A stretch of 64,000 nucleotides of DNA from a virus. Every line of letters starts with the position of its first letter. The stretch's first letter is position 1. Under the pieces are notes generated by a model. That model did not search any database and was not told the origin of the DNA. It saw only the letters and a program-made list of their open reading frames with translations. This document shows, one piece after another, positions 11,063 to 31,012 of this stretch. The DNA is taken from positions 53,643 to 117,642 of IMG/VR virus record IMGVR_UViG_3300037502_003770. The stretch is one strand, 5' to 3'. A program made the translations under genes and the position numbers.

Positions 11063-11063
11063 A

Positions 11064-11633: not shown

Positions 11634-11634
11634 A

Positions 11635-12198: not shown

Positions 12199-12199
12199 A

Positions 12200-12685
12200 A
12201 TGAAAATTTATTTGAATTTTTATAATTATTTCTATTTTGAATCTTCTGTAAAAACGTACTCTCTTTTGAAAAATACAGTTTATTTTCAATTAGCACTGGA
12301 GATTTTTTTCGATAGAAATTTTTATAATAAGATTTTTTCGCCACTTACTAAAAACTATTATGATTATTCTATTCGTTATAATAAGAAATTTTCAGAAAAA
12401 CTTAGTATTATGATTAGTAAGTACATGATAAAAGATAATTATGAAATATATCGTGATTTTTCTTATGAATTACAAACTTTAGAAAATACCTTACTTTATT
12501 TAGGTATTATAATTGAAAAGTACAATCACGTAAGTCATTATAATTTATCTGTTATTCCTAGTAAATTATTAAAAACTAAAGAAATTACACAAAAAATAGC
12601 AATGGTACGTATTAAATCTTTATCTTTTGAAGAAGAATTTAACCAAGAATATATTGAATCAGTTTTAAAAATTTTAACATTATAA
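12200..12685 (+). CDS. FamA-long protein (divergent)
   Basis: MKIYLNFYNYFYFESS...; C-terminal LSVIPSKLLKTKEITQKI. Confidence 0.5.
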   Translation: MKIYLNFYNYFYFESSVKTYSLLKNTVYFQLALEIFFDRNFYNKIFSPLTKNYYDYSIRYNKKFSEKLSIMISKYMIKDNYEIYRDFSYELQTLENTLLYLGIIIEKYNHVSHYNLSVIPSKLLKTKEITQKIAMVRIKSLSFEEEFNQEYIESVLKILTL

Positions 12686-12734
12686 AATAAATTAAGTATT
12701 ATATTTAACATTAAACAAAAACAATCAAACAATT

Positions 12735-14519
12735 ATGTTCAACAAACTAACAACAACAGGGAAAGCGTTAATTGCCCTACTTATTATTGGTTTACTTATT
12801 TGTGGTAAGTTCTTTATTTTCGATAGATTACCTCAAGAAGTTCAAGAATCTCAACATTTTGGTAAAGTAAGTTTACCAGATTCACCTGAAGCATCTTTAA
12901 CAGGAAATGCTGCTATTAAATTAGAATTTCCTAAAGAAACAGATGCAAATAATGGTGGTACAAAAATCATTTGGAAAATGATGGCGTGGCAAAGTCAAAA
13001 TGGAATTGTTTATTCAAATGGAGGTTCTACCACTAAAGAAAATAGTCTATTTGATAAAGCTAAATTAGATGTAACACTAGAAAGACAAGATGATTGTTTT
13101 AAAAGTTGTGCAGATTTAGTAGCTTTCACTAAACAATACAAAGAAAACCCTGAAACACCAGCTGTTTTTATTACATTTATGGGTTCTGGAATTCCAGCCT
13201 ATATTTCAGGAATTTCTAAACAAGTGGAAGATTTAGGACCTGAATATCAACCAGTAGCTTTTCTAACAACTGGAAAATCTTATGGTGAAGACCAAATTAT
13301 AGGTGATAAAAAATATAAAGATAATAAACAAAATCTAAAAGGTGCTACGGTTGTAGGTGTACGAATGGATGGTGATTTAGATTTAGCTTTAAAACTTTGT
13401 GGTGATAATGGAATAAAAGTAAATGTAGATGATAAAGTTTACGACCCTGAAGCTTTAAACTTTATGTATTCAGGAACTTTCATGGATGCAGTTGTTATGT
13501 ATAATAATAATTATTCTGAAACTCGAAAAATCGCTATTAATGGTAAAACAATTGGTAGAGATACAACAATTAGTGCTGATTTAGTTGCAACATGGACACC
13601 AGGCGATGTTAAAGCAAAACAAGGTAGAGGTGGTGTAACAATTATTTCCACTAAACAATATGCGAGTATTATGCCAAATATCACAATTACTTGTAAGAAA
13701 TGGCTAAACGACCACCGAATACAAGCTCAAGAAATTACAAAAGCATGTGCTATCGCAGGAGACCAAATCAGGACATTTGACGATGTTAAGAAATATGTAT
13801 CTCGTTTAAATACTGATTTTTATAATGAAAAAGATGCTTCACCTGAATATTGGTACAAATATTATAATGGTGAACAAATTGATGAAGATACGAGGTTAGG
13901 TGGTTCAATGGTATTTAACTTAGGTGATATGGCAAATATGTTAGGTATCTTCATTGAAGGACAAACAGACCATACAGATATTTATAAATCAGTTTATAAT
14001 ACCTTTGGTACGCTTCAAAGCAAATATTACCCTAATGATTTACCTAAATACTTAGAATATACTAAGGCTTTTGATAAAACAGTTTTACAAACAGTAATTA
14101 ATGAAAATCCTGAATTACTCACAGGTAAAATCAATTTAATTGATTATAGTAAAACAGAAAAAGGCGACCAAATTGGTAATAAATCTTATAATATTGAATT
14201 TGCATCAGGTTCATCAGAACTTACCGAAAGTGGCAAACGAGAATTAGATGAAATTTATACTAATATTGTTTCAGCTGACGGTACAAAAGTAGAATTGATT
14301 GGTCATACTGATAATCAAGGTATTTCCTCTGAAAACTTATCTCTTTCTGAAAGAAGAGCCAAATCAGCACTAGAATATCTAAAACAAAAAGGTGTGGAAT
14401 CTCAAAGATTAGTATCTAAAGGTAGAGGTGATAGTGAACCAGTTGCAGATAATTCCACAAGTGCAGGTAGAGCTAAAAATAGAAGGGTAAATATTTCACT
14501 CTTTGCTATTAAAGAATAA
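12735..14519 (+). CDS. OmpA-family protein with N-terminal membrane anchor
   Basis: N-terminal TM segment; C-terminal LIGHTDNQGISSENLSLSERRAKSALEYLKQKGV...RAKNRRVNISL is a typical OmpA C-terminal peptidoglycan-binding domain. Confidence 0.75.
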   Translation: MFNKLTTTGKALIALLIIGLLICGKFFIFDRLPQEVQESQHFGKVSLPDSPEASLTGNAAIKLEFPKETDANNGGTKIIWKMMAWQSQNGIVYSNGGSTTKENSLFDKAKLDVTLERQDDCFKSCADLVAFTKQYKENPETPAVFITFMGSGIPAYISGISKQVEDLGPEYQPVAFLTTGKSYGEDQIIGDKKYKDNKQNLKGATVVGVRMDGDLDLALKLCGDNGIKVNVDDKVYDPEALNFMYSGTFMDAVVMYNNNYSETRKIAINGKTIGRDTTISADLVATWTPGDVKAKQGRGGVTIISTKQYASIMPNITITCKKWLNDHRIQAQEITKACAIAGDQIRTFDDVKKYVSRLNTDFYNEKDASPEYWYKYYNGEQIDEDTRLGGSMVFNLGDMANMLGIFIEGQTDHTDIYKSVYNTFGTLQSKYYPNDLPKYLEYTKAFDKTVLQTVINENPELLTGKINLIDYSKTEKGDQIGNKSYNIEFASGSSELTESGKRELDEIYTNIVSADGTKVELIGHTDNQGISSENLSLSERRAKSALEYLKQKGVESQRLVSKGRGDSEPVADNSTSAGRAKNRRVNISLFAIKE

Positions 14520-14548
14520 AATATAACCTTATTTAAAATAAAAAAACT

Positions 14549-14578
14549 CTCAATTTTAACGATTGGGGGTTTTTTTTG
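14549..14578 (+). terminator. possible weak intrinsic terminator
   Basis: ctcaat/attggg 6-bp stem (one G-U) followed by GGTTTTTTTT. Confidence 0.35.
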
Positions 14579-14607
14579 TAATATAAATAAACATAAACAA
14601 CATTATA

Positions 14608-15213
14608 ATGAAACTAACTTATTCTATTTCAGAAAATAATTATATTGGAATTAGCAATCAAATTTTCTTTTATGAGTTACTATTTGGTTTATCTATATTA
14701 AAAAATAATACAGTTTATTTTAGCATACCTTCTTCTTATAGTGAAAGGTTATCTGAATCATTAAAAATAATTACAGGAAATATTGAATCTTTAATAAAAG
14801 TTGATAATAAAATTAAATATGTTGATGTTATATTTTCAAGTTCTATTGAGAAAGCTGAAATATCATTTTCTTCTCATCATAAATTTAGTTTAGATATAAA
14901 TGATAAATTAAATATATCTTACTTAATTGAGAGAATACAAAAATTTTCTAATTTAAAAGCATTAGAAAATATCAATGTTACTGACGAAACAATGGAACTT
15001 TCAGAAGGCTCCGTTGCTTTATTAAAAACAGCTTTAGAAAAATTAGAACCTTCTATTCAAGAAGCTATTTTATTAAATGATATACCTACTTTATTGAAAA
15101 TTGCTTTAGTAAATAAACTATATAGATTAGTTGATACTAATTTAGAATTTGATAATATTCTAAAAGTAGAAGATATTGCAACAGCTTTACAATTTTTACC
15201 TAGATTAAATTAA
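14608..15213 (+). CDS. hypothetical protein, FamA-like motif offset from the N-terminus
   Basis: ISENNYIGISNQIFFYELL at residues 8-26. Confidence 0.35.
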   Translation: MKLTYSISENNYIGISNQIFFYELLFGLSILKNNTVYFSIPSSYSERLSESLKIITGNIESLIKVDNKIKYVDVIFSSSIEKAEISFSSHHKFSLDINDKLNISYLIERIQKFSNLKALENINVTDETMELSEGSVALLKTALEKLEPSIQEAILLNDIPTLLKIALVNKLYRLVDTNLEFDNILKVEDIATALQFLPRLN

Positions 15214-15214
15214 T

Positions 15215-15442
15215 ATGAAGGATGATATTTTTTTACAAATTGATATAAATACTGGTCACACAAAATACTTTGAACGTGACAGTAAATTTAATTTAAAACT
15301 TTCTTTAATTATTATTTATTTTACAGAAGAGACTTTTTTGAATAAAAATGGTTTGTATCTTTTACTTATAATGAAAGATGGTAAAACCATTTTCTTTAAA
15401 GATTTTAGACATCAAAAAATAATTTATTATGTTGGAAATTAG
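15215..15442 (+). CDS. FamA-short protein
   Basis: IFLQIDINTGHTKYFERD motif; tandem position in the array. Confidence 0.35.
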   Translation: MKDDIFLQIDINTGHTKYFERDSKFNLKLSLIIIYFTEETFLNKNGLYLLLIMKDGKTIFFKDFRHQKIIYYVGN

Positions 15443-15623
15443 TATATATTATAATTATACAACTTACAATGAAATTTTTGATATTAGCGTATTGAAATCA
15501 TGTCTTAATATACAGATAAAAGAATATATAGTTTTCCATGAATATATACAATCTTTTTCTAAGTTAATTTCATATTATAATAAAAATCTTCGTAACTTAA
15601 AATATTATGTTAATAAAAATTAA
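15429..15623 (+). CDS. FamA-short-like protein (weak)
   Basis: MLEISIYYNYTTYNE; overlaps its neighbours. Confidence 0.3.
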   Translation: MLEISIYYNYTTYNEIFDISVLKSCLNIQIKEYIVFHEYIQSFSKLISYYNKNLRNLKYYVNKN

Positions 15624-15855
15624 ACTCTCAGAACATTGTTTTTATATTGAGGATTCTTTATACTCAAGACCTTTTACAAGAAGGAACTTTGCTTTTGATT
15701 TAATTTTAAATAATTTTAATGAAATAACATATTTTTTCAATAATAATTTTTATTTAACATGTAATATAAATAAAAATAATATTGAATATTTTGATATTTC
15801 ACTAATGACTGGTATTAAAAATTTTCTTAATTTAACGCATTATATACCAACATAA
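15607..15855 (+). CDS. FamA-short protein
   Basis: MLIKIKLSEHCFYIEDS. Confidence 0.4.
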   Translation: MLIKIKLSEHCFYIEDSLYSRPFTRRNFAFDLILNNFNEITYFFNNNFYLTCNINKNNIEYFDISLMTGIKNFLNLTHYIPT

Positions 15856-16149
15856 ATGTTAGACATTATTTTATATATAGATTGCTTTCAATATATTGAG
15901 GCAACAATAGTGGATATCGGTTCACCAAAAAAAATCTTATTTAGATTAGATTTAAATAATAAAAATAGAATTTTTATTGAAATAAATAGATTTTCTTTAA
16001 AGAAAGGTTATTTTTCATTAATTAACTTTATAAAAGAACGCAAAATTTTATTTAATGATTTAGATTATATAAATATTTTAGATTTAAAATATTATTTTAA
16101 AATATCAAATTCTATCAAAGAGAAAGATTCTCACCTTGCTTTTCTCTGA
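15856..16149 (+). CDS. FamA-short protein whose 3' end runs into the antisense of TnpB-like copy 1
   Basis: MLDIILYIDCFQYIEAT...DLKYYFKISNSIKEKDSHLAFL. The last ~15 codons lie opposite the TnpB-like C-terminal coding region. Confidence 0.4.
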   Translation: MLDIILYIDCFQYIEATIVDIGSPKKILFRLDLNNKNRIFIEINRFSLKKGYFSLINFIKERKILFNDLDYINILDLKYYFKISNSIKEKDSHLAFL

Positions 16150-17495
16150 ATTTAACTGAAAAACTTTATAAGAATGTAAACATTCTTCAATAGAAACTCT
16201 ATATCTCATTTTAGAGTTTTTTATTTTAAGGTAAACTTCCTTCCAATCCTTACAATTAATAAAAGTTTCCTTCCATTGGTCTTTTATTAACAGATTTGGA
16301 TAAAAATTTCCCTTATTTCTTTTAATTATACATTCTATTCCCCTGCGTAAAATTTCTATTGAGGCATTAACAGCATCGCTGTAATCATATTGCAAATTGC
16401 CTATAATAGATGAATACGCAGGATTTATTCTGTATAATTTAATATCTTCAATAAATAACCTTTTTGAAAGATTTTCTATAAAAAGATTTCTTTTCCAAAG
16501 GTTATTATTTTTTCTATTATATTTTCTTCCTTGACCAGCATTTTTACTTTTAAAAGATAAGTCTTCAATAAAAACCGCTTTACAATTATAATACTTTGCA
16601 ACTAAAGAAATCTTCTTAGAGATTTCAATTACTTCATGTTTAATTTTATTCTGAAAGTACTTTGCTTCTTGAGAATCAGTTGATAATTTTAAGGAAATAA
16701 ATTTATCAGTTAGTTCTTTTAAAGAAAACTCTTGGCAATGAATAAGTTTATCATCTTCCATAATAGAAATACCTATATTATTAGGATTCATATCTATCCC
16801 TAAATATCTTTCTTTTGAAGGGAGAAATTTCTTTTCTTGAGATTTAAATTCTTCAAAAGAAATATAAATGTATTTTAAATCAAGTTTTACAGAAAATTTA
16901 TAACCATTCTCAAAACAATCAATATCATTTAATTCCTCAAGTTTAAATAATTCCTTTTTAATATTTCTTCTTAAAGAAGGGAGGTATAAAGGAATATGTA
17001 AATTTCTATTTACTTTAAAAGTGATTTTATTGTTATCAATAATATCTAATTCAAAATAAGTATTTCCTTTATTAGATGTTGTTCCTTGACAAGTAATAGG
17101 TGATAATTTATTTATTTTAAATTCATCATTACTTATCTTACCTTTACATCTTTCATAAAAGTTATTCTTTCCACCAAAAATAACTTTTTGATTTTGAAAT
17201 CTTGTATGAACATCTTTTCCTTCTAAAATAGCGTATTCTATTTGTTTAGAATTAAGCTTTCCAATATTATTTAAACCTTTAAGTAAAGATTTCATTTCTT
17301 TAATATCTGTTATCCCTTCAAAATATCTATTATATGAAAACCTTATTACAGAAGAGAATTGTTTCATTAAAGAATGGATTTCTTTTAATGAATTTACATC
17401 AGTAGTATAAGGCATTTTAATAGTTTTCAAAAGTCTTTAATGTTTATTATAAATAGTAAAAATAAATTATTTAGTATATAATTTTATAACGAATT
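16085..17495 (-). mobile_element. tnpB-like-only IS element, copy 1
   Basis: Shared 3' flank TAAAATATCAAAT just past the stop; shared left end tgtttattataaatagtaaaaataaatta at 17441-17470. Confidence 0.55.
16105..17430 (-). CDS. TnpB-like RuvC nuclease paralog 1 (no zinc-finger insertion in RuvC-III)
   Basis: RuvC-I GIDMNPNNIG, RuvC-II AVFIEDLSF, RuvC-III INPAYSSIIGNLQYDYSDAVNASIEI. No CxxC between PAYSS and DAxNA. Called start is TTG; the ATG 5 codons in gives MPYTT. Confidence 0.75.
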   Translation of the reverse strand: MKTIKMPYTTDVNSLKEIHSLMKQFSSVIRFSYNRYFEGITDIKEMKSLLKGLNNIGKLNSKQIEYAILEGKDVHTRFQNQKVIFGGKNNFYERCKGKISNDEFKINKLSPITCQGTTSNKGNTYFELDIIDNNKITFKVNRNLHIPLYLPSLRRNIKKELFKLEELNDIDCFENGYKFSVKLDLKYIYISFEEFKSQEKKFLPSKERYLGIDMNPNNIGISIMEDDKLIHCQEFSLKELTDKFISLKLSTDSQEAKYFQNKIKHEVIEISKKISLVAKYYNCKAVFIEDLSFKSKNAGQGRKYNRKNNNLWKRNLFIENLSKRLFIEDIKLYRINPAYSSIIGNLQYDYSDAVNASIEILRRGIECIIKRNKGNFYPNLLIKDQWKETFINCKDWKEVYLKIKNSKMRYRVSIEECLHSYKVFQLNSEKSKVRIFLFDRI

Positions 17496-17534
17496 TAATA
17501 TATAAATGTATTTATAAAATAAACTTTTCAAAAA

Positions 17535-17756
17535 ATGAAAATATTTATAGGAAATTGGTTGTTCACTTATGAAGAAATTAATTTAAAAGGTAAAATTGAA
17601 GTTTACTTTTGTATTCATTCTTTATATAACAGTCTTTTTATTTATCAACAAAAATCAAAAAAATTAACTATTTTAACTATAAATGATAATATAAAAAGAA
17701 TAAGTTTTAGTCGTTATACTCTTAATGTTCATAATTTAAACTATTATATAAACTAA
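17535..17756 (+). CDS. FamA-short protein
   Basis: MKIFIGNWLFTYEEIN; TAATG overlap with the permease start. Confidence 0.4.
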   Translation: MKIFIGNWLFTYEEINLKGKIEVYFCIHSLYNSLFIYQQKSKKLTILTINDNIKRISFSRYTLNVHNLNYYIN

Positions 17757-18568
17757 TGAAAAAATTATTATTACCATCTTTTATAGAAAAACCTTCTTTT
17801 AAAATAATACTTATCTCAAGTATTATTCAGTTTGTTTTAGCTATTTTATTTCTTGAATATAATGGTAATGAGGTATTACCTAAACCAAGTAAAGTTTTAC
17901 ATTCTTTGTATAGTATAGTTATTAGTAAAGATTTTATCTTTGATTTTGTTGCAACATTATCTATGATATTTAAGAGTATGTCGATAGCTATTTTAATATC
18001 ATTATTCTTTATATATTTAAGTTTAATACCTATATTTAGAAATATGGCACAATTCATTTCTAAATTAAGGTTTTTAACTTACACAGGTTTAGTATTTGTA
18101 TTTACTGTTATTTTTCATAATGGTTCAGACATTAAACTATCTCTATTCTTATTTGCTATTATTCCTTATTTTGTAACATCTTTACTTTCTTATGTAAAAG
18201 ATATACCACAAAAAGAATATGAGTTAGCTTATACTTTAAAATTTAATGAATTTAAAACATTATATGAAGTAGTAATAAAAGGTCAATTACATACAGTATT
18301 TGAAGTAATAAGACAAAACTTTGCAATAGCATGGATGATGATTACAAGCGTTGAAGCATACTCTATGAGTGAAGGAGGTTTAGGAACCATGATGATTAAA
18401 TCAAATAAATATTTAGATATGAATAGTGTTTTTGCTGTATTAATAATAATTTTAATACTTGGAATATTCTTTGATTATTTATTTGATGTTTTAAAAGTGT
18501 TCTTCTTTCCATATACAAATATAAAAAGGTATGAAAATTTTTGGATAAATAAACTTTTTAAGAAATGA
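17756..18568 (+). CDS. ABC transporter permease, NitT/TauT (SsuC/TauC-like) family
   Basis: LPKPSKVLHSL N-terminal motif; about 6 TM segments; ELAYTLKFNEFKTLYEVVIKGQLHTVFEVIRQNFAIAWMMITSVEAYSMSEGGLGTMMIKS matches the conserved permease loop. Confidence 0.7.
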   Translation: MKKLLLPSFIEKPSFKIILISSIIQFVLAILFLEYNGNEVLPKPSKVLHSLYSIVISKDFIFDFVATLSMIFKSMSIAILISLFFIYLSLIPIFRNMAQFISKLRFLTYTGLVFVFTVIFHNGSDIKLSLFLFAIIPYFVTSLLSYVKDIPQKEYELAYTLKFNEFKTLYEVVIKGQLHTVFEVIRQNFAIAWMMITSVEAYSMSEGGLGTMMIKSNKYLDMNSVFAVLIIILILGIFFDYLFDVLKVFFFPYTNIKRYENFWINKLFKK

Positions 18569-18930
18569 TAAATATCTTTACAGAAAACTTCTTTTATTTA
18601 GAAGGTGGTGTCGAAAACCCAATACTTCATATAAGAAAATATACTACTTTCTTATATTTTAATATAAATATTGTAGATTATTTTATAGAAAAACTACGTA
18701 ATTTTAAAGTTGTTTTATATCATTTTGGTGAATATAATTTCTTTAATTTAAAATATGATGCTCAAGTAAACATATTATATTATTTACAAATTAGTATAAA
18801 AAAATCTATTCTTAATAAACTTTCTTTTCCTTTAGCTAAGTTTATCTATGATTCTGCACAAATAGGTGGTAAACTTAGTGGTAAAATAAAAGCTAGTCAT
18901 GTACCAAATAAATACCTTTTTCCAAAATGA
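18565..18930 (+). CDS. FamA protein (FFYLEGG subtype)
   Basis: MINIFTENFFYLEGGVE; ATGA overlap with the permease stop. Confidence 0.55.
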   Translation: MINIFTENFFYLEGGVENPILHIRKYTTFLYFNINIVDYFIEKLRNFKVVLYHFGEYNFFNLKYDAQVNILYYLQISIKKSILNKLSFPLAKFIYDSAQIGGKLSGKIKASHVPNKYLFPK

Positions 18931-19280
18931 TACAAATATTTAATGAAAACTTCTTTTATTTAGAAGGTGGTTTACAAGATAATGTATATGATAGAATACT
19001 AAGTTGTTTTATCTACTTTAATTCTTTCATTCACGATTATTTTATTAGTAAATTTGATAAAAATAAAGTAGAACTAAATTTATATCATTTTGAGATATAT
19101 AATAAGATAGAACTAAATAGAAGTTATAAAAAAATTCCTTATGAAATAACATTTACTTTAAATAAATTTTTTGTAAAAAAAGCTTCTTTTTCTTTAGTAA
19201 CAAATATTTACAAATATGCAATATCTTGTGGAAATATTAAGAAAACTAACTTACCAAAGAAATTTCAAAATTTATGTTAA
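18927..19280 (+). CDS. FamA protein (FFYLEGG subtype)
   Basis: MIQIFNENFFYLEGGLQ; near-identical to 18565 at the 5' end; ATGA overlap. Confidence 0.55.
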   Translation: MIQIFNENFFYLEGGLQDNVYDRILSCFIYFNSFIHDYFISKFDKNKVELNLYHFEIYNKIELNRSYKKIPYEITFTLNKFFVKKASFSLVTNIYKYAISCGNIKKTNLPKKFQNLC

Positions 19281-19480
19281 TAAAAATAGAATTTTCAAAC
19301 AACAATAATTATTTTGAAACGGAAGTAGGAAGGTTTTATTTTCATTTTACTATAACCTTTTATTATGAATGTGTTCATATTCTTGAAAGTACATTAAATT
19401 ATATTTATATTAAATATAATAATGAATATTTATATAAAAATTTTCAAAATATTAATAAACTTAATTTAAAATATTATTAG
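19274..19480 (+). CDS. FamA-short protein (C-terminal NLKYY)
   Basis: MLIKIEFSNNNNYFETE...NINKLNLKYY. Confidence 0.45.
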   Translation: MLIKIEFSNNNNYFETEVGRFYFHFTITFYYECVHILESTLNYIYIKYNNEYLYKNFQNINKLNLKYY

Positions 19481-19485
19481 TAATT

Positions 19486-19710
19486 ATGTATACTTATATT
19501 ATAATAATAGAATTATCAAACGATATTAATTATTATGAAAGAGAGCAATTTGCGAGTTTTTATTTTCATTTTGTAATATCTTGTATTTATTATGAATGTA
19601 TGCGCTTTAATGAGAGTTTAATATTAATTTATATTGAACATAACGATAAAGATTTATATAATTATTATAAAAATATTAACAAACTTAATTTAAAATATTA
19701 CTTGTTTTAA
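19486..19710 (+). CDS. FamA-short protein
   Basis: ...IIELSNDINYYERE...NINKLNLKYYLF; paralog of 19274. Confidence 0.45.
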   Translation: MYTYIIIIELSNDINYYEREQFASFYFHFVISCIYYECMRFNESLILIYIEHNDKDLYNYYKNINKLNLKYYLF

Positions 19711-19728
19711 AAAAACCATTTTCAAAAA

Positions 19729-20520
19729 ATGATTACTTACAAAAAAGAAGAACTTATTTTATCAGTAAATGACCTTTCTGTAAAGTATGGTGATAAACAA
19801 ATATTAAAAGATATTTCTTTTGATATTCATAATATTACAAGACCAAATCTTACTCAAGGACAAATCATATCTATTTGTGGTAGAAGTGGTTGTGGTAAAA
19901 CATCTTTATTTAAAACTATATCAGGTTTTTTAAAACCAACAACAGGAACTATAAAAATAGGTGTTGAACAAAAAGATGTAATTATGGGTGAGGTTGGTGT
20001 TATTCAACAAGATTATCCTTTATTTAATCATAGAACTGTTTATGAAAATCTTTCTCTTAGTTTAAAAAACGTTAAGACAGATAACGAAAAGAAAGAAAAA
20101 ATACATCATTATTGCGATTTATTTAATCTTTTGGAACATTTAAATAAATACCCTTCACAACTATCAGGTGGTCAAAGACAAAGAGTATCTATATTACAAC
20201 AGGTATTAACTGAAAATAAGTTTATTCTTATGGATGAACCATTTTCAGGATTAGATGTTTTAATGAAAGATAAAGTTATTGAACTTATGTTAAAGGTTTC
20301 AAATCTTGATGAAATGAATACTTTAATAATAGTTTCTCATGATATTGAATCATCTTGCGCTATTTCTGATACTGTACATATTTTAGCAAATAAAGATAAT
20401 ACAGGCTCTACAGTTGTTAAATCATATGACTTTCTAAAAGAAAATCTTGCTTATAGAAAAGATATTAAAGATGATTATAATTTCAAAAGAATTATTAATG
20501 AAATAAAAAGTTTAATCTAA
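19729..20520 (+). CDS. ABC transporter ATP-binding protein (SsuB/TauB-like)
   Basis: Walker A GRSGCGKTSL, signature LSGGQRQRVSI, Walker B ILMDEPFSGLD, H-loop IVSHD. Confidence 0.9.
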   Translation: MITYKKEELILSVNDLSVKYGDKQILKDISFDIHNITRPNLTQGQIISICGRSGCGKTSLFKTISGFLKPTTGTIKIGVEQKDVIMGEVGVIQQDYPLFNHRTVYENLSLSLKNVKTDNEKKEKIHHYCDLFNLLEHLNKYPSQLSGGQRQRVSILQQVLTENKFILMDEPFSGLDVLMKDKVIELMLKVSNLDEMNTLIIVSHDIESSCAISDTVHILANKDNTGSTVVKSYDFLKENLAYRKDIKDDYNFKRIINEIKSLI

Positions 20521-20717
20521 TGCAGATACTTATTTATTTAGAAAGGCATTCAAAATATTTTGAATATTATTATGATAATTCTTTTGAAGAAAGTTTAGTA
20601 TTTGAAATTAGAACATCTTTTTCGTTTGAATTTGTTAAAAATTTTATAATAGAAATATGGGAAAAAAATAATGATTCTTGGTATTATTATAATAAATTAA
20701 AATATTACGTATGTTAA
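20520..20717 (+). CDS. FamA-short protein
   Basis: MQILIYLERHSKYFEYYY...NKLKYYVC; TAATG overlap with the ATPase stop. Confidence 0.4.
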   Translation: MQILIYLERHSKYFEYYYDNSFEESLVFEIRTSFSFEFVKNFIIEIWEKNNDSWYYYNKLKYYVC

Positions 20718-20911
20718 ATATAGGTATTATTATTTTAAATAATGATTTTCGTTATTATGAATATTTTATTGGTATATTTGTTTTTGAAATTGATAATTTT
20801 GTTTTTTCTGAAACTTTTGAAATTGGTTATCATATTAGACTAGAAAGTTTAAGAAAAAACGGTAAGCGTTATTTTATTGCAAATGTTTTTAATTTAAAAT
20901 ATTACTTATGA
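20711..20911 (+). CDS. FamA-short protein
   Basis: ...ILNNDFRYYEYF...NVFNLKYYL. Confidence 0.45.
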   Translation: MLNIGIIILNNDFRYYEYFIGIFVFEIDNFVFSETFEIGYHIRLESLRKNGKRYFIANVFNLKYYL

Positions 20912-21108
20912 TAAGAATAAATTTTAATAATGGTCTTTATGAAGAATGGTTACATAATTGTAATATATATACTTTTGTTACTTTAGTGTATTATTTTGAA
21001 TGTGTAAGCTTTTTAAATTCAAGTTTTCAAATTAATGAATTAAAATTTAAAGGGAATTATTTTTATTATAAAAATATTAATCTTCTTAATTTAAAATATT
21101 ACTTATGA
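20908..21108 (+). CDS. FamA-short protein
   Basis: MIRINFNNGLYEEW...NINLLNLKYYL; ATGA overlap. Confidence 0.45.
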   Translation: MIRINFNNGLYEEWLHNCNIYTFVTLVYYFECVSFLNSSFQINELKFKGNYFYYKNINLLNLKYYL

Positions 21109-21323
21109 TTCATATTTTTTCTCTTAATAAAAACATTTTTTATTCAGAAAAATTTATATTTAATGCTGATGTATTTCTTGTTCGTTTAAATATTAATAAT
21201 TATGTTGAAAGTATTATGTTTGATTATAATTTTATTCTATTAGAAATGGAATATTCGATGTTTATAGAAATTAATAAACTTCTTAAATTAAAATATTATT
21301 TAAGTTATTACTTATGGCTGTAA
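21105..21323 (+). CDS. FamA-short protein
   Basis: MIHIFSLNKNIFYSEKF...INKLLKLKYYL; ATGA overlap. Confidence 0.45.
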   Translation: MIHIFSLNKNIFYSEKFIFNADVFLVRLNINNYVESIMFDYNFILLEMEYSMFIEINKLLKLKYYLSYYLWL

Positions 21324-21523
21324 ATATATATTTAACAAATTCTTCTTATAGGGAAAGACAACATGAATATTATATTAGTAATATATTTCATAATGAAAAT
21401 ACTATTTTCAGTTCGATATATTCTTTACAATTAGCATCTTTAATAAAAAATAAAATCTTTTATTATTCAATAGTACAAAAATATAATACTGTTTTAAAAT
21501 TAAAATATTATTTATGGGAATAA
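21314..21523 (+). CDS. FamA-short protein (divergent N-terminus)
   Basis: ...NTVLKLKYYLWE. Confidence 0.4.
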   Translation: MAVNIYLTNSSYRERQHEYYISNIFHNENTIFSSIYSLQLASLIKNKIFYYSIVQKYNTVLKLKYYLWE

Positions 21524-21744
21524 AAATTTGTTTTAACAATACTACATGGAATTTTTATATTGAATTTTTTTCTTATAAAGAGTGTATTTTCACTATTAAA
21601 ATTTTATCTAATTTAATAACATCTACATTAATTGGAAATAAATTACAAGATGTTGTTTTAAAAATAAAAAATAATACACTATTAACAACTGATTCCATTA
21701 AAAACGTTACCACTAATGTTCTTAATTTAAAATTTTATATATGA
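21514..21744 (+). CDS. FamA-short protein (divergent)
   Basis: ...NVLNLKFYI. Confidence 0.4.
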   Translation: MGIKICFNNTTWNFYIEFFSYKECIFTIKILSNLITSTLIGNKLQDVVLKIKNNTLLTTDSIKNVTTNVLNLKFYI

Positions 21745-21956
21745 TAATAAGTATTAAAATTTCTAATAATAATTTTTCTTATGACGAAAATATTTCCAGT
21801 ATTTATGATAATACTATAATAACTAACTTATGGATTTTTAAATGTTTTGAAGATAGAATTTTTATTAACACAATAAATCAAATAATAGAAATGATTTACT
21901 ATATTACAATTAATAATTTCACAGTATACAGTAATAATAAATATTATAAAACTTAA
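21741..21956 (+). CDS. FamA-short protein (divergent, no KYY tail)
   Basis: MIISIKISNNNFSYDEN...; ATGA overlap. Confidence 0.35.
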   Translation: MIISIKISNNNFSYDENISSIYDNTIITNLWIFKCFEDRIFINTINQIIEMIYYITINNFTVYSNNKYYKT

Positions 21957-21965
21957 AGAACTAAA

Positions 21966-22193
21966 ATGAGAATAAATATTAAAATAAAAACATATTTCTT
22001 TAAATATGAAGAATTTAATTTAGTAGATGAAAATATGATAACTCATCTAGACCTTTCAAATATCTTTTATTTTGAAAGAAGTTATTTTTCTTTAAATGTA
22101 GATAATTATAAAATATATGCAATTTATAAAAATAGATTTCTTTATTTTGAAAATCGTGATGTTAATTTACTTAAATTAAAATATTATCTATGA
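21966..22193 (+). CDS. FamA-short protein
   Basis: MRINIKIKTYFFKYEEFNL...VNLLKLKYYL. Confidence 0.45.
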   Translation: MRINIKIKTYFFKYEEFNLVDENMITHLDLSNIFYFERSYFSLNVDNYKIYAIYKNRFLYFENRDVNLLKLKYYL

Positions 22194-22402
22194 GATTACA
22201 AATTGTTTTTAATTTTGGAGGTTATTATAGTGAACTTGATAAATATGTAATTGTTTACATTTATCCAAAATATTATGATATTTATTTTAATGATGTATTT
22301 TATTATATTGATTCAAATATAAAATTAATAGAAGTAAGGCATTTAAACAGCAAAAAATATTCTCGTGAATATAAAGATTTCATTTTAAAATACTATACAT
22401 AA
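22190..22402 (+). CDS. FamA-short protein
   Basis: MRLQIVFNFGGYYSELD...FILKYYT; ATGA overlap. Confidence 0.4.
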   Translation: MRLQIVFNFGGYYSELDKYVIVYIYPKYYDIYFNDVFYYIDSNIKLIEVRHLNSKKYSREYKDFILKYYT

Positions 22403-22612
22403 TGAAGATAGAAATTAAATCAACATATTTTACGTATTATGAAAGACTTGGTTATGATGTTCAAAATTATTTTTCTTTAAATTTAGATTGGATTTTTTTT
22501 AGAAGATATAGATTTATATAAAAATGAATTTATTATGAATTTTGTAGGTTTTGGTCAAAAATGTTTTTATTCAAAAAATAGTAATTTACTTAAATTAAAA
22601 TATTATATATAA
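22402..22612 (+). pseudogene. FamA-short gene frameshifted at a T9 homopolymer
   Basis: Frame a: MKIEIKSTYFTYYERLGYDVQNYFSLNLDWIFF... Frame b after GATTTTTTTTTAG: ...FFLEDIDLYKNEFIMNFVGFGQKCFYSKNSNLLKLKYYI ending at 22610-22612. Confidence 0.45.
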
Positions 22613-24000
22613 AATATTAAATTCTTTCAAAGACAAAAGTTTTCACCTTGCTTTTCTCTGAACTTAACTGAAAAACTTTATAAGAATGCAAACATTCTTC
22701 AATAGAAACTCTATATTTCAATTTAGAGTTTTTTATTTTAAGAGAAATTTCTTTCCAATCTGTACATTTAATAAAAGTTTCCTTCCAACGGTCTTTTATT
22801 AACAAATTGGGATAAAAATTTCCCTTATTTCTTTTAATTATACATTCAATTCCTCTGCGTACAATTTCTATTGAGGCATTAATAGCATCAGTATAATCAT
22901 GTTGCAAATTGCCTATAATAGACGAATACGCAGGATTAATTCTGTATAATTTAATATCTTCTATGAATAACCTTTTACTTAAATTTTCAAAAAACAGATT
23001 CCTTTTCCAAAGGTCATTATTTTTTCTGTTATATGTTTTTCCCTTACCAGCGTCTTTTTGTTTAAATGATAAATCTTCAATAAAAACTGCTTTACACTTA
23101 TAATATTTTGCAAGTAATGAAATCTTTTTTGAAATTTCAATTACTTCATGTTTAATTTTATTCTGAAAGTACTTTGCTTTTTCAGAATCAGTAGATAGTT
23201 TTAAAGAAATAAATTTATCAGTTAATTCCTTTAAAGAAAACTCTTGACAATGAATAATTTTATCATCTTCCATTATAGATATACCTATATTATTGGGATT
23301 CATATCTATTCCTAGATACCTTTCTTTTGAAGGAAATTTCTTTTCTTCATATTTAAATTCTTCAAAAGATATATAAATATATTTTAAGTCAAGTTTTACA
23401 CAAAATTTATATCCTTTCTCACCAAACTTTATATCATTTAATTCTTGAAGTTTAAATAATTCTTTTTTAATATTCTTTCTTAAAGAAGGAAGGTATAAAG
23501 GTATATGCACATATTTATTTACTTTAAATATAATTTGATTATTATCAATTATATCTAAATTAAAATAAGAATTTCCTTTATTATTAGTTATTCCTTGACA
23601 CGTAATAGGTGAAAGTTTATTTATTTTAAATTCATCTTTACTTATTTTAGCTTTACACCTTTCATAAAAATTATTCTTTCCTCCGAAAATAACCTTTTCA
23701 TTTTGAAATCTTGTATAAACATCTTTTCCTTCTAAAATAGCATACTCTATTAGTTTAGAATTAAGTTTATTTATATTATTTAAATTAGAAAGTAAAAATT
23801 TTATTTTCTTAATATCAGATATCCCTTCAAAATATCTATTATAGGAGTACCTTACTACAGAGGAGAATTGTTTCATCAAAGAATGAATTTCTTTTAATGA
23901 AGTATCATCTGTAGTGTAAGGCATTTTAATAGTTTTCAAAAGTCTTTAATGTTTATTATAAATAGTAAAAATAAATATAATTTTTTTAACAAATCATTTT
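22598..24000 (-). mobile_element. tnpB-like-only IS element, copy 2, immediately 5' of tRNA-Met
   Basis: Shared 3' flank TAAAATATTAAAT; shared left end at 23951-23980. Confidence 0.55.
22617..23939 (-). CDS. TnpB-like RuvC nuclease paralog 2 (no zinc-finger insertion)
   Basis: 440 aa, near-identical to copies 1 and 3; GIDMNPNNIG, AVFIEDLSF, INPAYSSIIGNLQHDYTDAINASIEI. Confidence 0.75.
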   Translation of the reverse strand: MKTIKMPYTTDDTSLKEIHSLMKQFSSVVRYSYNRYFEGISDIKKIKFLLSNLNNINKLNSKLIEYAILEGKDVYTRFQNEKVIFGGKNNFYERCKAKISKDEFKINKLSPITCQGITNNKGNSYFNLDIIDNNQIIFKVNKYVHIPLYLPSLRKNIKKELFKLQELNDIKFGEKGYKFCVKLDLKYIYISFEEFKYEEKKFPSKERYLGIDMNPNNIGISIMEDDKIIHCQEFSLKELTDKFISLKLSTDSEKAKYFQNKIKHEVIEISKKISLLAKYYKCKAVFIEDLSFKQKDAGKGKTYNRKNNDLWKRNLFFENLSKRLFIEDIKLYRINPAYSSIIGNLQHDYTDAINASIEIVRRGIECIIKRNKGNFYPNLLIKDRWKETFIKCTDWKEISLKIKNSKLKYRVSIEECLHSYKVFQLSSEKSKVKTFVFERI

Positions 24001-24029
24001 AAATCAAGTATTATATAAACAAACACAAT

Positions 24030-24103
24030 GGACCTATAGCGCAACTGGTCAGAGCAGCTGACTCATAATCAGCAGGTTTCAGGTTCAAATCCTGATAGGT
24101 CCA
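24030..24103 (+). tRNA. tRNA-Met (anticodon CAT; could also be initiator or tRNA-Ile2 type)
   Basis: Acceptor ggaccta/taggtcc; anticodon stem gctga/tcagc with loop ctCATaa; T-arm tcagg-ttcaaat-cctga; D-loop with GG; no encoded CCA. Confidence 0.8.
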
Positions 24104-24121
24104 CTTTAAAATTTTATAAAA

Positions 24122-24727
24122 ATGGTGTTAATATCAAGTAAAGTTATTTCTGTAACAGAAAGTAATTGGCAAGAACTAAAACCAAAATTAGTTTTAGAAT
24201 TAAAAAATATTATAACTACTTGGGAAATCAAGAGATTAATACAAGCAGACAGTTTTAACAAATTTTTTGATGTTTTATATAGTAATTATGTACCATTAAA
24301 ATTTGAATATGCAAGTATTATTGAAATTGAAAATATGAAACAATCTAAATATAAAGAATCAGAATTTATTATTTGGTTGTTAGAAACTTATTGTTTAAAA
24401 ATTGAAAATTATAGTTTATCTAAATTAAGTAGTAATAATGAACTTACTGAACAAGTAATTAAATTACATAAAGATTTAATAGCAGGTAAATTTGATGAAT
24501 TTAAATGGAAATCTCTTCGTAATAGTACTGGTTTTTGTAAAAAACCAATAAATATTGTTGAATATATTTGTTATTGCTCACTTAATACTGATGATTTTTA
24601 TTTTATTAGTATAAACCATGTTATACGTCTTTTTTTCCATTATTTAGATGAAGACCGTAGTATTGGTGATAGTATTGCAGACACAATTGCACAAGAAATT
24701 ACTAACAAACTAATAACCTTTTTATAA
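24122..24727 (+). CDS. hypothetical protein
   Basis: 201-aa ORF; no domain. Confidence 0.45.
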   Translation: MVLISSKVISVTESNWQELKPKLVLELKNIITTWEIKRLIQADSFNKFFDVLYSNYVPLKFEYASIIEIENMKQSKYKESEFIIWLLETYCLKIENYSLSKLSSNNELTEQVIKLHKDLIAGKFDEFKWKSLRNSTGFCKKPINIVEYICYCSLNTDDFYFISINHVIRLFFHYLDEDRSIGDSIADTIAQEITNKLITFL

Positions 24728-30739: not shown

Positions 30740-31012
30740 ATGGAAAAAATAGAACTGCAAGAAGTGGAAATTATGGATGAAGATACTATTTCTTCAAAAC
30801 AAATAGTCCTTTATAATGACGATTTCAATACATTTGATAATGTTATTAAATGTTTAATGGTTTATTGTAAACATGTGTATGAACAAGCACTACAATTTGC
30901 TATGCAAGTGCATGAAAAAGGTAGATGTTCCGTTAAAGAGGGTTCATATAAAGAATTAAAACCTATTTGCGAGGCTTTACTTGAGAAAGGTTTATCAGCT
31001 CAAATAGAATAA
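30740..31012 (+). CDS. clpS: ATP-dependent Clp protease adaptor ClpS
   Basis: 90 aa; VLYNDDFNTFDNVIKCL...AMQVHEKGRCSVKEGSYKELKPICEAL matches the ClpS core. Confidence 0.8.
   Translation: MEKIELQEVEIMDEDTISSKQIVLYNDDFNTFDNVIKCLMVYCKHVYEQALQFAMQVHEKGRCSVKEGSYKELKPICEALLEKGLSAQIE

What the first reader, a model, noticed from the sequence alone, without database searches (positions are those of the whole stretch)
19274..22612. Tandem array of 13 mini-genes of roughly 200 bp (FamA-short), with conserved ends and a hypervariable middle, chained by overlapping stop/start codons
Units at 19274, 19486, 20520, 20711, 20908, 21105, 21314, 21514, 21741, 21966, 22190 and 22402 each encode 65-75 aa. The N-terminus is the FamA motif, the C-terminus is N(L/K)LNLKYYL, and the middle is unrelated between neighbours. 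Consecutive units are joined by ATGA or TAATG overlaps, for example ...AAATATTACTTATGATAAGA at 20900 and 21098, so the array reads as one translationally coupled polycistron. Candidate explanations are a diversified peptide library (bacteriocin or leader-core-like), an immunity or orphan-module array, or a decaying tandem duplication. The array sits inside an ABC transporter operon, which adds to the interest.
Basis: seen in the sequence. Interest (0 to 1): 0.7.

Follow-up and report, generated by a model that had tools for sequence, protein, structure and literature searches.

The report
Fast-evolving mini-protein gene arrays, giant phage
An uncultivated giant phage carries about 17 back-to-back genes for tiny, tyrosine-rich beta-sheet proteins wedged into a nutrient-importer operon. 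They are real, fast-evolving genes known only from this phage's closest kin, so they look like an arms-race style gene family rather than exported peptides or decaying junk.

Summary
The array is real. All twelve listed ATG starts check out, and five more units lie upstream (15215-16098 and 17535). The last unit (22402-22612) is frameshifted at a T8 run.

The units are genuine coding genes. There are 0 stops in 1,066 in-frame codons, against 8-17% stop density in the other five frames. In a neutral-mutation simulation a unit rarely stays open.

They form an orphan family. Only about 12-14 hits turned up among billions of proteins, all from the source 312-kb contig and two or three related metagenomic phages. 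AlphaFold predicts a six-stranded beta-meander with an unplaced conserved C-terminal tail.

Related phages keep the same synteny, but copy number and unit content differ. dN/dS is 0.4-1.0 for the units and about 0.1 for the ABC genes. A more distant 416-kb phage has the three ABC genes contiguous with no minis, so the minis are lineage-specific insertions. The ABC system is an importer type, which argues against a bacteriocin or leader-core library.

The N-terminal motif M-x-I-x-I-…-F-Y-x-E heads 26-40 of about 120 genes in the window.

Best reading: a birth-and-death multigene family of small binder-like accessory proteins, probably translationally coupled. Its function is not demonstrated.

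The parts
12735..14519 (+). 594-aa membrane-anchored protein with a C-terminal OmpA peptidoglycan-binding domain. Presumed substrate-binding partner of the ABC importer and first gene of the conserved cluster.
   Evidence: Pfam OmpA and NCBIfam OmpA-like hits. Orthologues are present in all relatives and in the distant 416-kb phage. dN/dS is 0.09. The substrate-binding role is inferred from position only.
14608..15213 (+). 201-aa protein of unknown function that always precedes the upstream mini-gene array.
   Evidence: Present as 201-203 aa in the relatives. No Pfam or NCBIfam hit. dN/dS is 0.32.
15215..16098 (+). Upstream mini-gene array of four units (15215, 15429, 15607, 15856). The last unit runs into the inserted TnpB-like element right after its LDLKYY motif.
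   Evidence: ORFs; HMM hit. The relative has 13 units here and no insertion.
16098..17467 (-). About 1.37-kb TnpB-like (RuvC-type) single-gene mobile element, copy A, inserted in the upstream array.
   Evidence: Three copies at 88-89% nt identity. Weak TIGR01766/TIGR01765 hits. Absent at this site in relatives.
17535..17756 (+). Mini-gene unit (73 aa) immediately upstream of the permease, with a TAATG overlap.
   Evidence: The orthologue P0012 is 90% identical.
17756..18568 (+). ABC importer permease.
   Evidence: Pfam BPD_transp_1. Weak NCBIfam hits to SaoP/TauC/SsuC. dN/dS is 0.10.
18565..19280 (+). Two 'FamA-long' paralogues (121 and 117 aa) carrying the same N-terminal motif, ATGA-coupled to the permease and to each other.
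   Evidence: Structure prediction was uninformative.
19274..19710 (+). Two mini-gene units (68 and 74 aa) that are 54% identical to each other.
19729..20520 (+). ABC transporter ATPase.
   Evidence: Pfam ABC_tran. 97% nt identity to L001. dN/dS is 0.10.
20520..22402 (+). Main array of nine intact mini-gene units (65-76 aa) starting at 20520, 20711, 20908, 21105, 21314, 21514, 21741, 21966 and 22190.
   Evidence: AF2 model of unit 20908 has pLDDT 85 and is a six-stranded beta-meander.
22402..22612 (+). Tenth unit of the main array, frameshifted at the T8 run 22493-22500. This is either a pseudogene or a homopolymer sequencing error.
   Evidence: The colinear unit at this position in the 47-kb relative's gene table is an intact 69 aa; its sequence was not compared.
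22606..23994 (-). TnpB-like element, copy B, inserted directly after the last unit's ...TTAAAATATTATATAT.
   Evidence: The relative has one more unit (77 aa) here and no element.

Best explanation
The locus is a lineage-specific multigene family of small (62-87 aa), cytoplasmic, tyrosine/isoleucine/asparagine-rich all-beta proteins in an uncultivated giant (312-kb) phage. The host is probably in Bacteroidota.

Shown:
- The units are protein-coding and kept open by selection.
- They are found only in this small phage clade.
- They were inserted at all three gene boundaries of a pre-existing three-gene ABC importer cluster.
- Copy number and content change quickly between close relatives.
- Their non-synonymous rate is about 4-10 times that of the flanking genes.

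Inferred:
- They multiply by unequal recombination at the conserved roughly 40-nt stop/start junction (ancestral ...AAT TTA AAA TAT TAC TTA TGA with ATG overlapping the stop).
- They are transcribed with the ABC genes and translated by termination-reinitiation coupling.
- Each unit folds into the same six-stranded beta-meander scaffold. The N-terminal hairpin (M-x-I-x-I-…-Y-x-E) and the C-terminal N-L-K-Y-Y strand are held constant, while the surface varies.
- That is the signature of a diversified binder repertoire. It would be used in host interaction (counter-defence or host takeover), comparable to multigene families and hyperplastic regions of other large viruses.
For: Coding and under selection. 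There are 0 stops in 1,066 in-frame codons against 8-17% in the other frames, and 99% ORF cover against at most 14% in shuffles. In a neutral substitution simulation only 13%, 4% and 0.7% of units stay open at 10%, 17% and 33% divergence. Orthologues are intact in relatives at 83-90% identity (P0002, P0004, P0009, P0012, P0014) and in L001.

Orphan and clade-restricted. A word-indexed search of 5.8 billion proteins gave 14 hits, and an exhaustive HMMER search of 1.84 billion representatives gave 12. All were 65-84 aa and all came from the source contig or 2-3 related contigs. There was no Pfam, PHROG, NCBIfam or PDB match.

Insertions into an older operon. The 416-kb IMG/VR phage has the OmpA-fused protein, permease and ATPase contiguous, with no mini-like ORF.

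Rapid turnover. Between the window and L001 the ATPase is 97% nt identical and the permease and OmpA-fused gene 83-84%. Only 1-2 of about 12 units are still alignable at the nucleotide level. The arrays have 13 versus 4(+1), 3 versus 2 and 12 versus 10 units. Each genome has roughly one broken unit.

dN/dS is 0.38-0.97 for the minis against 0.09-0.10 for the ABC genes.

Common scaffold. AF2 gives pLDDT 85 and pTM 0.69 with six strands. Conserved framework columns run all along the alignment.

Polycistronic layout. Overlaps are -1, -4, -7 or -10, or gaps are at most 18 nt. No terminator-like site was found in 12000-24500.
Against: No expression or protein data exist. Function is inferred only from evolutionary pattern and size.

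The dN/dS confidence intervals include 1 for 3 of 4 pairs, and the estimates rest on one relative with DNA in a genome of extreme AT bias.

No defence-related or host-derived partner was identified. The constant association with the ABC genes in all three close relatives could mean a functional link that I have not recognised. The meaning of the N-terminal motif shared with many unrelated proteins is unexplained.
Confidence: 0.45

Rival explanations
1. The N-terminal 14-residue hairpin is a targeting tag. It would be recognised by one common machine: prohead core or protease as with the T4 capsid-targeting sequence, or a chaperone, protease adaptor or export device. The arrays would then encode a large arsenal of delivered or processed effector proteins.
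For: A strict form of the motif sits at the extreme N-terminus of 26 of 120 genes, against 1.2 expected from its internal frequency. A looser reading gives about 40 genes. Profile-profile comparison shows that similarity between subfamilies stops after residues 9-14. Conservation is at the protein level, because codons vary synonymously. The motif ends in [F/Y]-x-E, which is reminiscent of the L/I-x-E cleavage site of the T4 prohead protease (my own knowledge). T-even internal proteins are diverse anti-restriction proteins that share only a CTS (PMC3012670).
Against: One third of the genes in 64 kb is far more than any known set of packaged proteins. In the model the motif is the first hairpin of the folded sheet, not a detachable peptide. 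No prohead protease or scaffold gene lies in the window. P3 is aromatic rather than Leu or Ile.
Confidence: 0.12
2. The ORFs are kept open only to preserve transcription-translation coupling (avoiding polarity) or genome length for headful packaging. On this view the proteins themselves are functionless filler produced by runaway tandem duplication.
For: dN/dS is statistically compatible with 1 in 3 of 4 pairs. Amino-acid composition is what very AT-rich DNA encodes (F, L, I, N, K, Y; 15-18% GC). Units are gained and lost freely. One unit per genome is broken.
Against: Paralogues at only 18-54% identity still keep invariant or near-invariant framework residues, unit length (62-87 aa) and both terminal motifs. 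A confident common fold is predicted. The terminal array has no coupled essential gene downstream, yet it is as intact as the internal ones. Polarity would not require a stop and restart every 200 nt.
Confidence: 0.1
3. Units are joined into longer proteins. This could happen by programmed -1 ribosomal frameshifting at the conserved T_TTA_AAA (the N-L-K codons) just before each stop. It could also happen after translation, by head-to-tail strand pairing of the C-terminal NLKYY strand with the next unit's N-terminal strand. Either route would give modular beta-sheet polymers of variable composition.
For: An in-frame X_XXY_YYZ heptamer lies 12-21 nt upstream of the next ATG, with the next ORF in the -1 frame and no intervening stop. 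This holds at 7 junctions in the window and 4 in L001, including junctions with 2-8 nt gaps rather than overlaps. The Leu codon in the motif is TTA in 20 of 22 cases, against 128 of 195 elsewhere (Fisher p = 0.01). The junction is the most conserved DNA in the array. The conserved tail is left unplaced in the monomer model.
Against: Only about half of the units have the canonical heptamer; the others read A_TTA_AAA or ATA AAA. The orthologue of unit 20908 in L001 has CTA, which destroys the heptamer. Three heptamers are followed by an ORF in another frame. No stimulatory structure is evident in this roughly 16% GC DNA. TTTAAAA is common by chance in this genome, and 4-nt ATGA overlaps automatically place the next gene in the -1 frame. 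The copies are homologous and therefore not independent observations.
Confidence: 0.07
4. An array of immunity, antitoxin or anti-toxin-like small proteins, comparable to orphan immunity gene arrays.
For: The units are small, diversified, tandem, intracellular proteins. One weak Foldseek hit was to an Rhs immunity protein (E = 3.3, not significant).
Against: No toxin or polymorphic-toxin gene lies in the locus or in the relatives' loci. All units belong to one family, whereas orphan immunity arrays are usually heterogeneous.
Confidence: 0.05
5. A diversified precursor-peptide library (bacteriocin or RiPP leader-core) exported by the adjacent ABC transporter.
Against: The permease is an importer-type BPD_transp_1 with an OmpA-anchored partner whose binding-protein role is inferred from position. 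There is no C39 peptidase, no double-glycine motif and no modification enzyme. The C-terminus is conserved as well. A folded beta protein is predicted. A distant relative has the same ABC genes with no minis. Genes with the same N-terminal motif occur at many other places in the window away from any transporter.
Confidence: 0.02
6. Neutral decay of duplicated gene fragments (pseudogene array), or a non-coding repeat array.
For: High dN/dS. One frameshifted unit at 22402, and one split unit (58 + 38 aa) in the relative.
Against: In the simulation the probability that all 15 units stay open at only 10% divergence is about 7e-14. There are no stops in frame, against 8-17% in the other frames. Orthologues are intact in three other assemblies.
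Confidence: 0.02

Closest known systems
Hyperplastic regions and the internal-protein (IP) locus of T4-type phages
   Same: Both are clusters of small, fast-changing ORFan genes between conserved genes. Their content differs between close relatives. In the IP locus, otherwise unrelated proteins share only a short N-terminal sequence (PMC3012670). Shuffling is mediated by short conserved sequences at cassette borders (PMC2839356, PMC4122927).
   Different: Here the conserved borders are coding (stop/start overlap plus terminal protein motifs), not promoter-stem-loop (PeSL) elements, and no terminator-like hairpins were found. The units are paralogues of one family rather than unrelated ORFs. 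There is no sequence similarity to any T4 protein. The shared N-terminal motif is a predicted beta-hairpin that forms part of the fold. Packaging into virions is untested.
Tandem multigene families and 'gene accordions' of large DNA viruses (ASFV MGF110/360, poxvirus host-range gene amplification); comparison from my own knowledge
   Same: Tandem paralogue arrays in variable genome regions, copy-number change between strains, elevated non-synonymous rates, and small accessory proteins thought to act on host functions.
   Different: This is a bacterial virus with much smaller units (about 70 aa). The units are chained by 1-10 nt overlaps inside an operon of conserved genes. There is no homology to those families and no phenotype.
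-1 programmed frameshift gene pairs (IS3-family orfA/orfB, lambda G/GT, dnaX); comparison from my own knowledge
   Same: The upstream ORF ends shortly after an in-frame X_XXY_YYZ heptamer, and the downstream ORF overlaps in the -1 frame.
   Different: The heptamer is present in only about half of the units and is lost in one orthologue. No stimulator was seen. Every downstream unit has its own ATG and a full N-terminal motif, which fits independent initiation.
Beta-hairpin repeat or single-layer beta-sheet proteins (OspA central sheet, MORN repeats)

Membership tests
Bacteriocin/RiPP precursor array with dedicated ABC exporter | Exporter-type ABC transporter (ABC_membrane domain fused to the ATPase, often with a C39 peptidase) | tested here: not met
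   The permease is BPD_transp_1 (importer type) and the ATPase is a separate importer-like NBD. An OmpA-anchored 594-aa partner lies upstream.
Bacteriocin/RiPP precursor array with dedicated ABC exporter | Leader peptide with a processing motif (e.g. double glycine), followed by a short Cys/Ser/Thr-rich core, with modification enzymes nearby | tested here: not met
   The N-terminal motif is M-x-I-x-I-…-Y-x-E with no GG or GA. Gly, Ala and Pro are nearly absent. No modification enzyme appeared among the neighbouring ORFs scanned.
T4-type internal proteins with a capsid-targeting sequence | Short conserved N-terminal sequence shared by otherwise unrelated proteins | tested here: met
   26 of 120 genes carry it, against 1.2 expected. 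Similarity between subfamilies is limited to residues 1-14.
T4-type internal proteins with a capsid-targeting sequence | The tag ends at a prohead-protease site (L/I-x-E) and is removed; a gp21-like protease and scaffold core are present | tested here: inconclusive
   The motif ends in [F/Y]-x-E, which is similar but not the same. No protease or scaffold gene was recognised in the 64-kb window. The rest of the 312-kb genome was not available.
T4-type internal proteins with a capsid-targeting sequence | The proteins are present in virions and are ejected | not testable with these tools
   Needs virion proteomics.
PeSL-flanked mobile cassettes of T4-like hyperplastic regions | Each small ORF is flanked by a conserved early promoter plus stem-loop terminator motif | tested here: not met
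   No terminator-like sites were found in 12000-24500, and promoter-like sites are not above shuffle expectation. The conserved junction is coding.
Birth-and-death tandem multigene family (viral 'accordion' type) | Tandem paralogues with copy-number and content differences between close relatives | tested here: met
Birth-and-death tandem multigene family (viral 'accordion' type) | Faster protein evolution than flanking genes, with ORFs maintained | tested here: met
   dN/dS is 0.38-0.97 for the minis against 0.09-0.10 for the ABC genes. ORF integrity is shown. The confidence intervals are wide.
Birth-and-death tandem multigene family (viral 'accordion' type) | Adaptive role in host interaction | not testable with these tools
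   Needs genetics or biochemistry in the unknown host.
Programmed -1 frameshift fusion | In-frame X_XXY_YYZ heptamer, with the downstream ORF open in the -1 frame | tested here: inconclusive
   Met at 11 junctions. It fails at 3 heptamers (wrong frame), and the heptamer is absent from about half of the units.
Programmed -1 frameshift fusion | The heptamer is conserved among orthologues, and a stimulatory element is present | tested here: not met
   TTA changes to CTA in the L001 orthologue of unit 20908. No terminator-type hairpin was found. Pseudoknots were not searched for specifically.
IS200/IS605-type TnpB element (the flanking 440-aa ORFs) | RuvC-type TnpB protein in a short element present in several copies | tested here: inconclusive
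   Three copies at 88-89% nt identity with defined ends. Only weak TIGR01766/TIGR01765 hits (E = 4e-4 to 8e-4, below cut-off). No Pfam, PDB or GTDB-genome relative. The RuvC-like D/E/D motifs were seen by eye only.

The most novel reading that the evidence does not exclude
The conserved N-terminal hairpin, present on 26-40 of about 120 genes, and the conserved C-terminal N-L-K-Y-Y / T_TTA_AAA junction may be functional addressing and joining signals. On this reading the phage encodes a very large repertoire of small diversified modules that are either routed to one common machine (packaged, ejected or processed effectors, i.e. a T4 internal-protein system scaled up by an order of magnitude) or concatenated into variable multi-module proteins, by -1 frameshifting or by strand exchange between neighbours. 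That would amount to a combinatorial protein-diversification system in a phage.
Probability: 0.15. Interest if true: 0.85.

Novelty: new variant of a known kind. Interest (0 to 1): 0.55.

Why it matters
Giant phages are full of ORFan genes whose origin and role are unknown. This locus shows unusually clearly how such genes arise and spread. A roughly 200-nt coding cassette with a built-in stop/start junction multiplies in place and colonises every gene boundary of an older three-gene importer cluster. It turns over between near-identical genomes while staying open.

If the products are diversified binders against host factors, the family is a natural small-scaffold library and a new source of anti-defence or host-takeover proteins. 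If the shared N-terminal hairpin is an address tag, it would define a new targeting signal covering about a third of the genes in this region.

The locus also gives a concrete test case for separating selection on the protein from selection on ORF continuity in extremely AT-rich genomes.

Tried and rejected
- Nucleotide search of the locus against INPHARED phages found no match.
- Pfam, PHROGs and NCBIfam found no family for the minis, the FamA-long pair or the 201-aa protein. A PDB sequence search found nothing meaningful.
- AlphaFold on FamA-long 18565 with its single paralogue failed with pLDDT 39.
- The search for the N-terminal motif outside the clade found nothing. The strict DNA pattern had no hit in IMG/VR. 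A looser pattern gave 12 singletons that look like chance, with no clusters.
- A search with the DUF4116-containing FamA subfamily returned only the same clade.
- A metagenome scan with the ATPase found only the distant 416-kb phage and unrelated ABC genes. DNA of the closest relative (the 47/74-kb contig) could not be retrieved, so its orthologues could be compared only as proteins.
- The TnpB-like protein has no relative in the GTDB genomes and none in the PDB, so it gave no host assignment.
- The sigma-70 promoter scan is uninformative in this AT-rich DNA.
- A literature search for comparable jumbo-phage arrays found nothing specific.
- Considered and rejected from the anatomy: CRISPR-like or integron-cassette arrays (the units are coding, and there are no non-coding repeats or attC-like sites), and an alternative genetic code (conserved genes are full length under table 11, and TGG is used for Trp).

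Full report
CONTEXT. The window is about 21-22% G+C, and 116 of about 120 ORF calls from my own crude caller are on the + strand. It has one tRNA-Met and no other Rfam hit. Most large ORFs have no Pfam or PHROG family. Recognisable genes include:
- a DNA methyltransferase, an RNA ligase and an AAA ATPase;
- ClpS, peptidyl-tRNA hydrolase, an SPFH protein and a Bax1-I protein;
- an OmpA-domain protein, lipoprotein-like signal sequences and a true TnpB.

Database look-ups show that the window comes from a 312,694-bp metagenomic contig. Its ABC ATPase is 51% identical to one on a 416-kb IMG/VR contig. I therefore treat the source as an uncultivated giant phage. No Shine-Dalgarno-like sequences precede the starts. 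Together with the lipoprotein signals, this hints at a Bacteroidota host, but that is inference.

OBSERVATION.

The stop/start junctions are as described. They comprise four ATGA overlaps, two TAATG overlaps, four overlaps of 7-10 nt and three short gaps. The longer overlaps read TTA TGG xxx TAA or xTA TGT TAA, meaning an ancestral TTATGA whose TGA was lost.

The junction motif TTAAAATATTAYNTRTG occurs nine times against 0.34 expected, and only in 19690-22611.

The array is far beyond chance. ORFs of at least 60 aa cover 99% of 20520-22402, against at most 14% in 500 shuffles. There is no stop in 1,066 in-frame codons, while the other five frames carry 8-17% stops.

- The last unit (22402-22612) is frameshifted at a T8 run (22493-22500). 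Removing one T restores a 69-aa unit.
- The ATPase gene interrupts the series.
- Five more members lie at 15215, 15429, 15607, 15856 and 17535.
- The middle is diverged rather than unrelated. Paralogues are 18-54% identical and share framework columns throughout.
- At the DNA level only the 35-50 nt junction repeats, and TRF sees no 200-bp period.

ARE THEY GENES? In this composition a neutral sequence cannot stay open. I applied random substitutions with the local base composition. The fraction of units left open was 13% at 10% divergence, 4% at 17% (the divergence of the best-conserved orthologue pair) and 0.7% at 33%. Fifteen of seventeen units in the window are nevertheless open. So are all those translated from L001, and so, by length, are all but one in the 47-kb relative's gene table. 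Five orthologues from the closer relative are intact at 83-90% identity. Neutral decay is rejected.

WHAT ARE THE PROTEINS? They have no Pfam, PHROG, NCBIfam or PDB relative. A word-indexed search of 5.8 billion proteins gave 14 hits, and an exhaustive HMMER search of 1.84 billion representatives gave 12. All hits were 65-84 aa and all belong to the source contig or to two or three related contigs. This is an orphan family.

The proteins are extreme in composition: Tyr 12%, Ile 13%, Asn 12% and Phe 9%, with almost no Gly, Ala or Pro. They have no signal peptide or membrane segment by inspection.

COMPARATIVE ANATOMY. Three related assemblies keep the same order:
1. OmpA-fused protein (591-594 aa)
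2. 201-203 aa protein
3. mini array
4. permease
5. one or two FamA-long genes
6. zero to three minis
7. ATPase
8. mini array

Copy numbers differ: 13 or 9 against 4(+1) upstream, 3 or 0 against 2 in the middle, and 12 or at least 5 against 10 downstream.

Against L001 the ATPase is 97% nt identical and the permease and OmpA-fused gene are 83-84%. Only unit 20908 (83%) and, weakly, unit 17535 still align at the nucleotide level. Most L001 units are not even detected by an HMM built from the window's units.

dN/dS (NG86 with bootstrap) is 0.09-0.10 for the three ABC genes and 0.32 for the 201-aa gene. For mini pairs it is 0.38-0.97, with intervals that include 1 in three of four pairs.

The 416-kb phage has the OmpA-fused protein, permease and ATPase directly adjacent, with no mini-like ORF. 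The minis are therefore later insertions at all three boundaries of an older cluster, not transporter components. The transporter is an importer type: BPD_transp_1, with weak best hits to SaoP/TauC/SsuC. That, together with the absence of any leader-type motif or maturation enzyme, removes the bacteriocin or leader-core idea.

THE N-TERMINAL MOTIF IS MUCH WIDER THAN THE ARRAY. M-x-I-x-I-(F-N-N-N)-x-F-Y-x-E starts 26 of 120 genes in a strict form, against 1.2 expected from its internal frequency. A looser reading gives about 40 genes, in proteins of 55-266 aa. Examples are:
- the tandem sets 10511-12685, which also carry DUF4116;
- 45728-47099, which is ATGA-coupled to the peptidyl-tRNA hydrolase gene;
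- 48363/49770/50249 and 35478-37147.

Codons at the conserved residues vary synonymously (ATA/ATT/ATC, TTT/TTC, TAT/TAC, GAA/GAG), so the peptide is what is conserved. Profile-profile comparison finds no similarity between subfamilies beyond residues 9-14. I found the motif nowhere outside the clade. Its role is unexplained. It may be a folding nucleus inherited by duplication and divergence, or an address tag.

MECHANISM. The best-supported reading is a birth-and-death tandem family.
- The cassette carries its own start and a stop that overlaps the next start. Unequal recombination at the roughly 40-nt junction therefore adds or removes whole units without breaking the operon (inferred and the copy-number differences).
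- Close spacing and the lack of terminator-like sites fit co-transcription with the ABC genes and termination-reinitiation coupling. This is not shown.
- A constant scaffold with a rapidly changing surface, a clade-restricted distribution and fast turnover are the pattern of virus accessory families engaged with host factors.
- The nearest precedents are T4-type hyperplastic regions and the internal-protein locus, where diverse anti-restriction proteins share only a capsid-targeting sequence (PMC3012670; PMC2839356; PMC4122927). Multigene families of large eukaryotic DNA viruses are a further precedent (my own knowledge).

I put 0.45 on this reading. The coding, orphan, inserted and fast-evolving parts are well supported. 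The binder or host-interaction function is inference.

RIVALS.
(a) Address tag or delivered effectors, 0.12. This fits the strict N-terminal position and the [F/Y]-x-E end. However, the motif is part of the predicted fold and occurs on too many genes.
(b) ORFs maintained only for polarity or genome length, 0.10. This fits dN/dS near 1 and the AT-driven composition. It does not fit the conserved framework residues, unit length or predicted fold.
(c) Joining of units, 0.07. An in-frame slippery heptamer T_TTA_AAA (the N-L-K codons) lies 12-21 nt before the next ATG, with the next ORF open in the -1 frame. This holds at 11 junctions, including some with small gaps. TTA is over-used at that Leu (20 of 22 against 128 of 195, p = 0.01). 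Against this, half of the units lack the canonical heptamer, one orthologue has lost it, three heptamers point to a wrong frame, and the copies are not independent.
(d) Immunity array, 0.05. No toxin gene was found.
(e) Exported peptide library, 0.02.
(f) Decay, 0.02.

SURROUNDINGS. Two of three copies of a 1.37-kb single-gene element flank the region (about 16098-17467 and 22606-23994; the third is at 33238-34630). The copies are 88-89% identical. Their 440-aa product has only sub-threshold TnpB-type hits and RuvC-like motifs seen by eye. Relatives lack the element at these sites. In the window, copy A coincides with about eight fewer units than in the relative. Copies A and B sit directly after a unit's ...TTAAAATATTAT... 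end, and copy C follows ...TTTACAT.

VERDICT. The locus is an orphan, rapidly evolving mini-protein family that has colonised an importer operon of a giant phage, and its function is unproven. It is a new variant of a known kind of system, and I score its interest at 0.55.

Noticed in passing
window-wide, e.g. 8183, 8734, 10511, 11064, 11635, 12200, 18565, 18927, 32498, 32793, 35478, 36279, 36755, 38864, 45728-46806, 48363, 49770, 50249, 57914: The N-terminal motif M-x-I-x-I-(FNNN)-x-F-Y-x-E heads 26 (strict) to about 40 (loose) of about 120 genes, in proteins of 55-266 aa that are otherwise unrelated between subfamilies. About 1.2 would be expected by chance. Conservation is at the protein level, and the motif was not found outside this phage clade.
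   Followed up: partly
window 16098-17467, 22606-23994, 33238-34630 (all - strand): Three copies (88-89% nt identity) of a 1.37-kb element encoding only a 440-aa RuvC/TnpB-like protein. It has sub-threshold TnpB hits and no Pfam, PDB or GTDB relative. The element is absent at these sites in related phages. Two copies sit directly after a mini-gene's TTAAAATATTAT end, and all three abut genes carrying the FamA motif. Copies A and B are direct repeats bracketing the permease-ATPase-mini segment.
   Followed up: partly
window 9085-10311 (-): A separate, canonical TnpB (OrfB_IS605 plus the Cas12f1-like TNB domain), unrelated to the three 440-aa copies.
   Followed up: no
window 22493-22500: A T8 homopolymer causes the only frameshift in the array. 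The colinear unit in the 47-kb relative's gene table is an intact 69 aa (matched by position and length; its sequence was not compared). This is a recent pseudogene, an assembly error or a slippage site.
   Followed up: partly
window 12735-14519, 17756-18568, 19729-20520; L003 7352-10801: A phage-borne ABC importer whose presumed binding protein is membrane-anchored and fused to an OmpA peptidoglycan-binding domain. It is conserved between this phage and a 416-kb IMG/VR phage. The substrate is unknown (weak NitT/TauT-like permease hits).
   Followed up: partly
window 19725-20516 vs L001 9209-10000: The ATPase gene is 97% nt identical to L001, while the flanking permease and OmpA-fused genes are only 83-84% identical. 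This suggests a recent recombinational exchange of that one gene.
   Followed up: no
window 45728-47099 and 47096-47635: A second array of five tandem FamA paralogues (84-97 aa) is ATGA-coupled to a peptidyl-tRNA hydrolase gene. The phage also encodes ClpS (30740-31012), an SPFH/Band 7 protein (31620-32429) and a Bax1-I family protein (55071-55817).
   Followed up: partly
window 10511-12685 and 8183-8713; 48363-50815: Tandem FamA paralogues of 160-189 aa with DUF4116 repeats (Pfam hit for 10511 and 8183), plus a conserved C-terminal L-K-N-L-S-I right at the next gene's start. That repeats the pattern of a conserved tail at the junction in a different subfamily.
   Followed up: partly
window 51030-54577: Another run of about 15 small genes (55-107 aa) with their own recurring N-termini (MNKTIEQLFQ...; MNKTKTIIISKKI...). 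It includes a near-duplicate pair at 52881 and 53200. This appears to be a different mini-gene family.
   Followed up: no
L001 about 10400-10665: The end of the 11.5-kb JGI contig switches abruptly to normal G+C and encodes a GtrA-like fragment on the other strand. The 30.5-kb version of the same phage continues with more mini-genes instead, so this is probably a chimeric assembly end.
   Followed up: no
window 14608-15213: The 201-aa protein that always heads the upstream array contains an internal FamA-like stretch (IGISNQIFFYEL) at residues 13-24. It may be a divergent member with an N-terminal extension.
   Followed up: no
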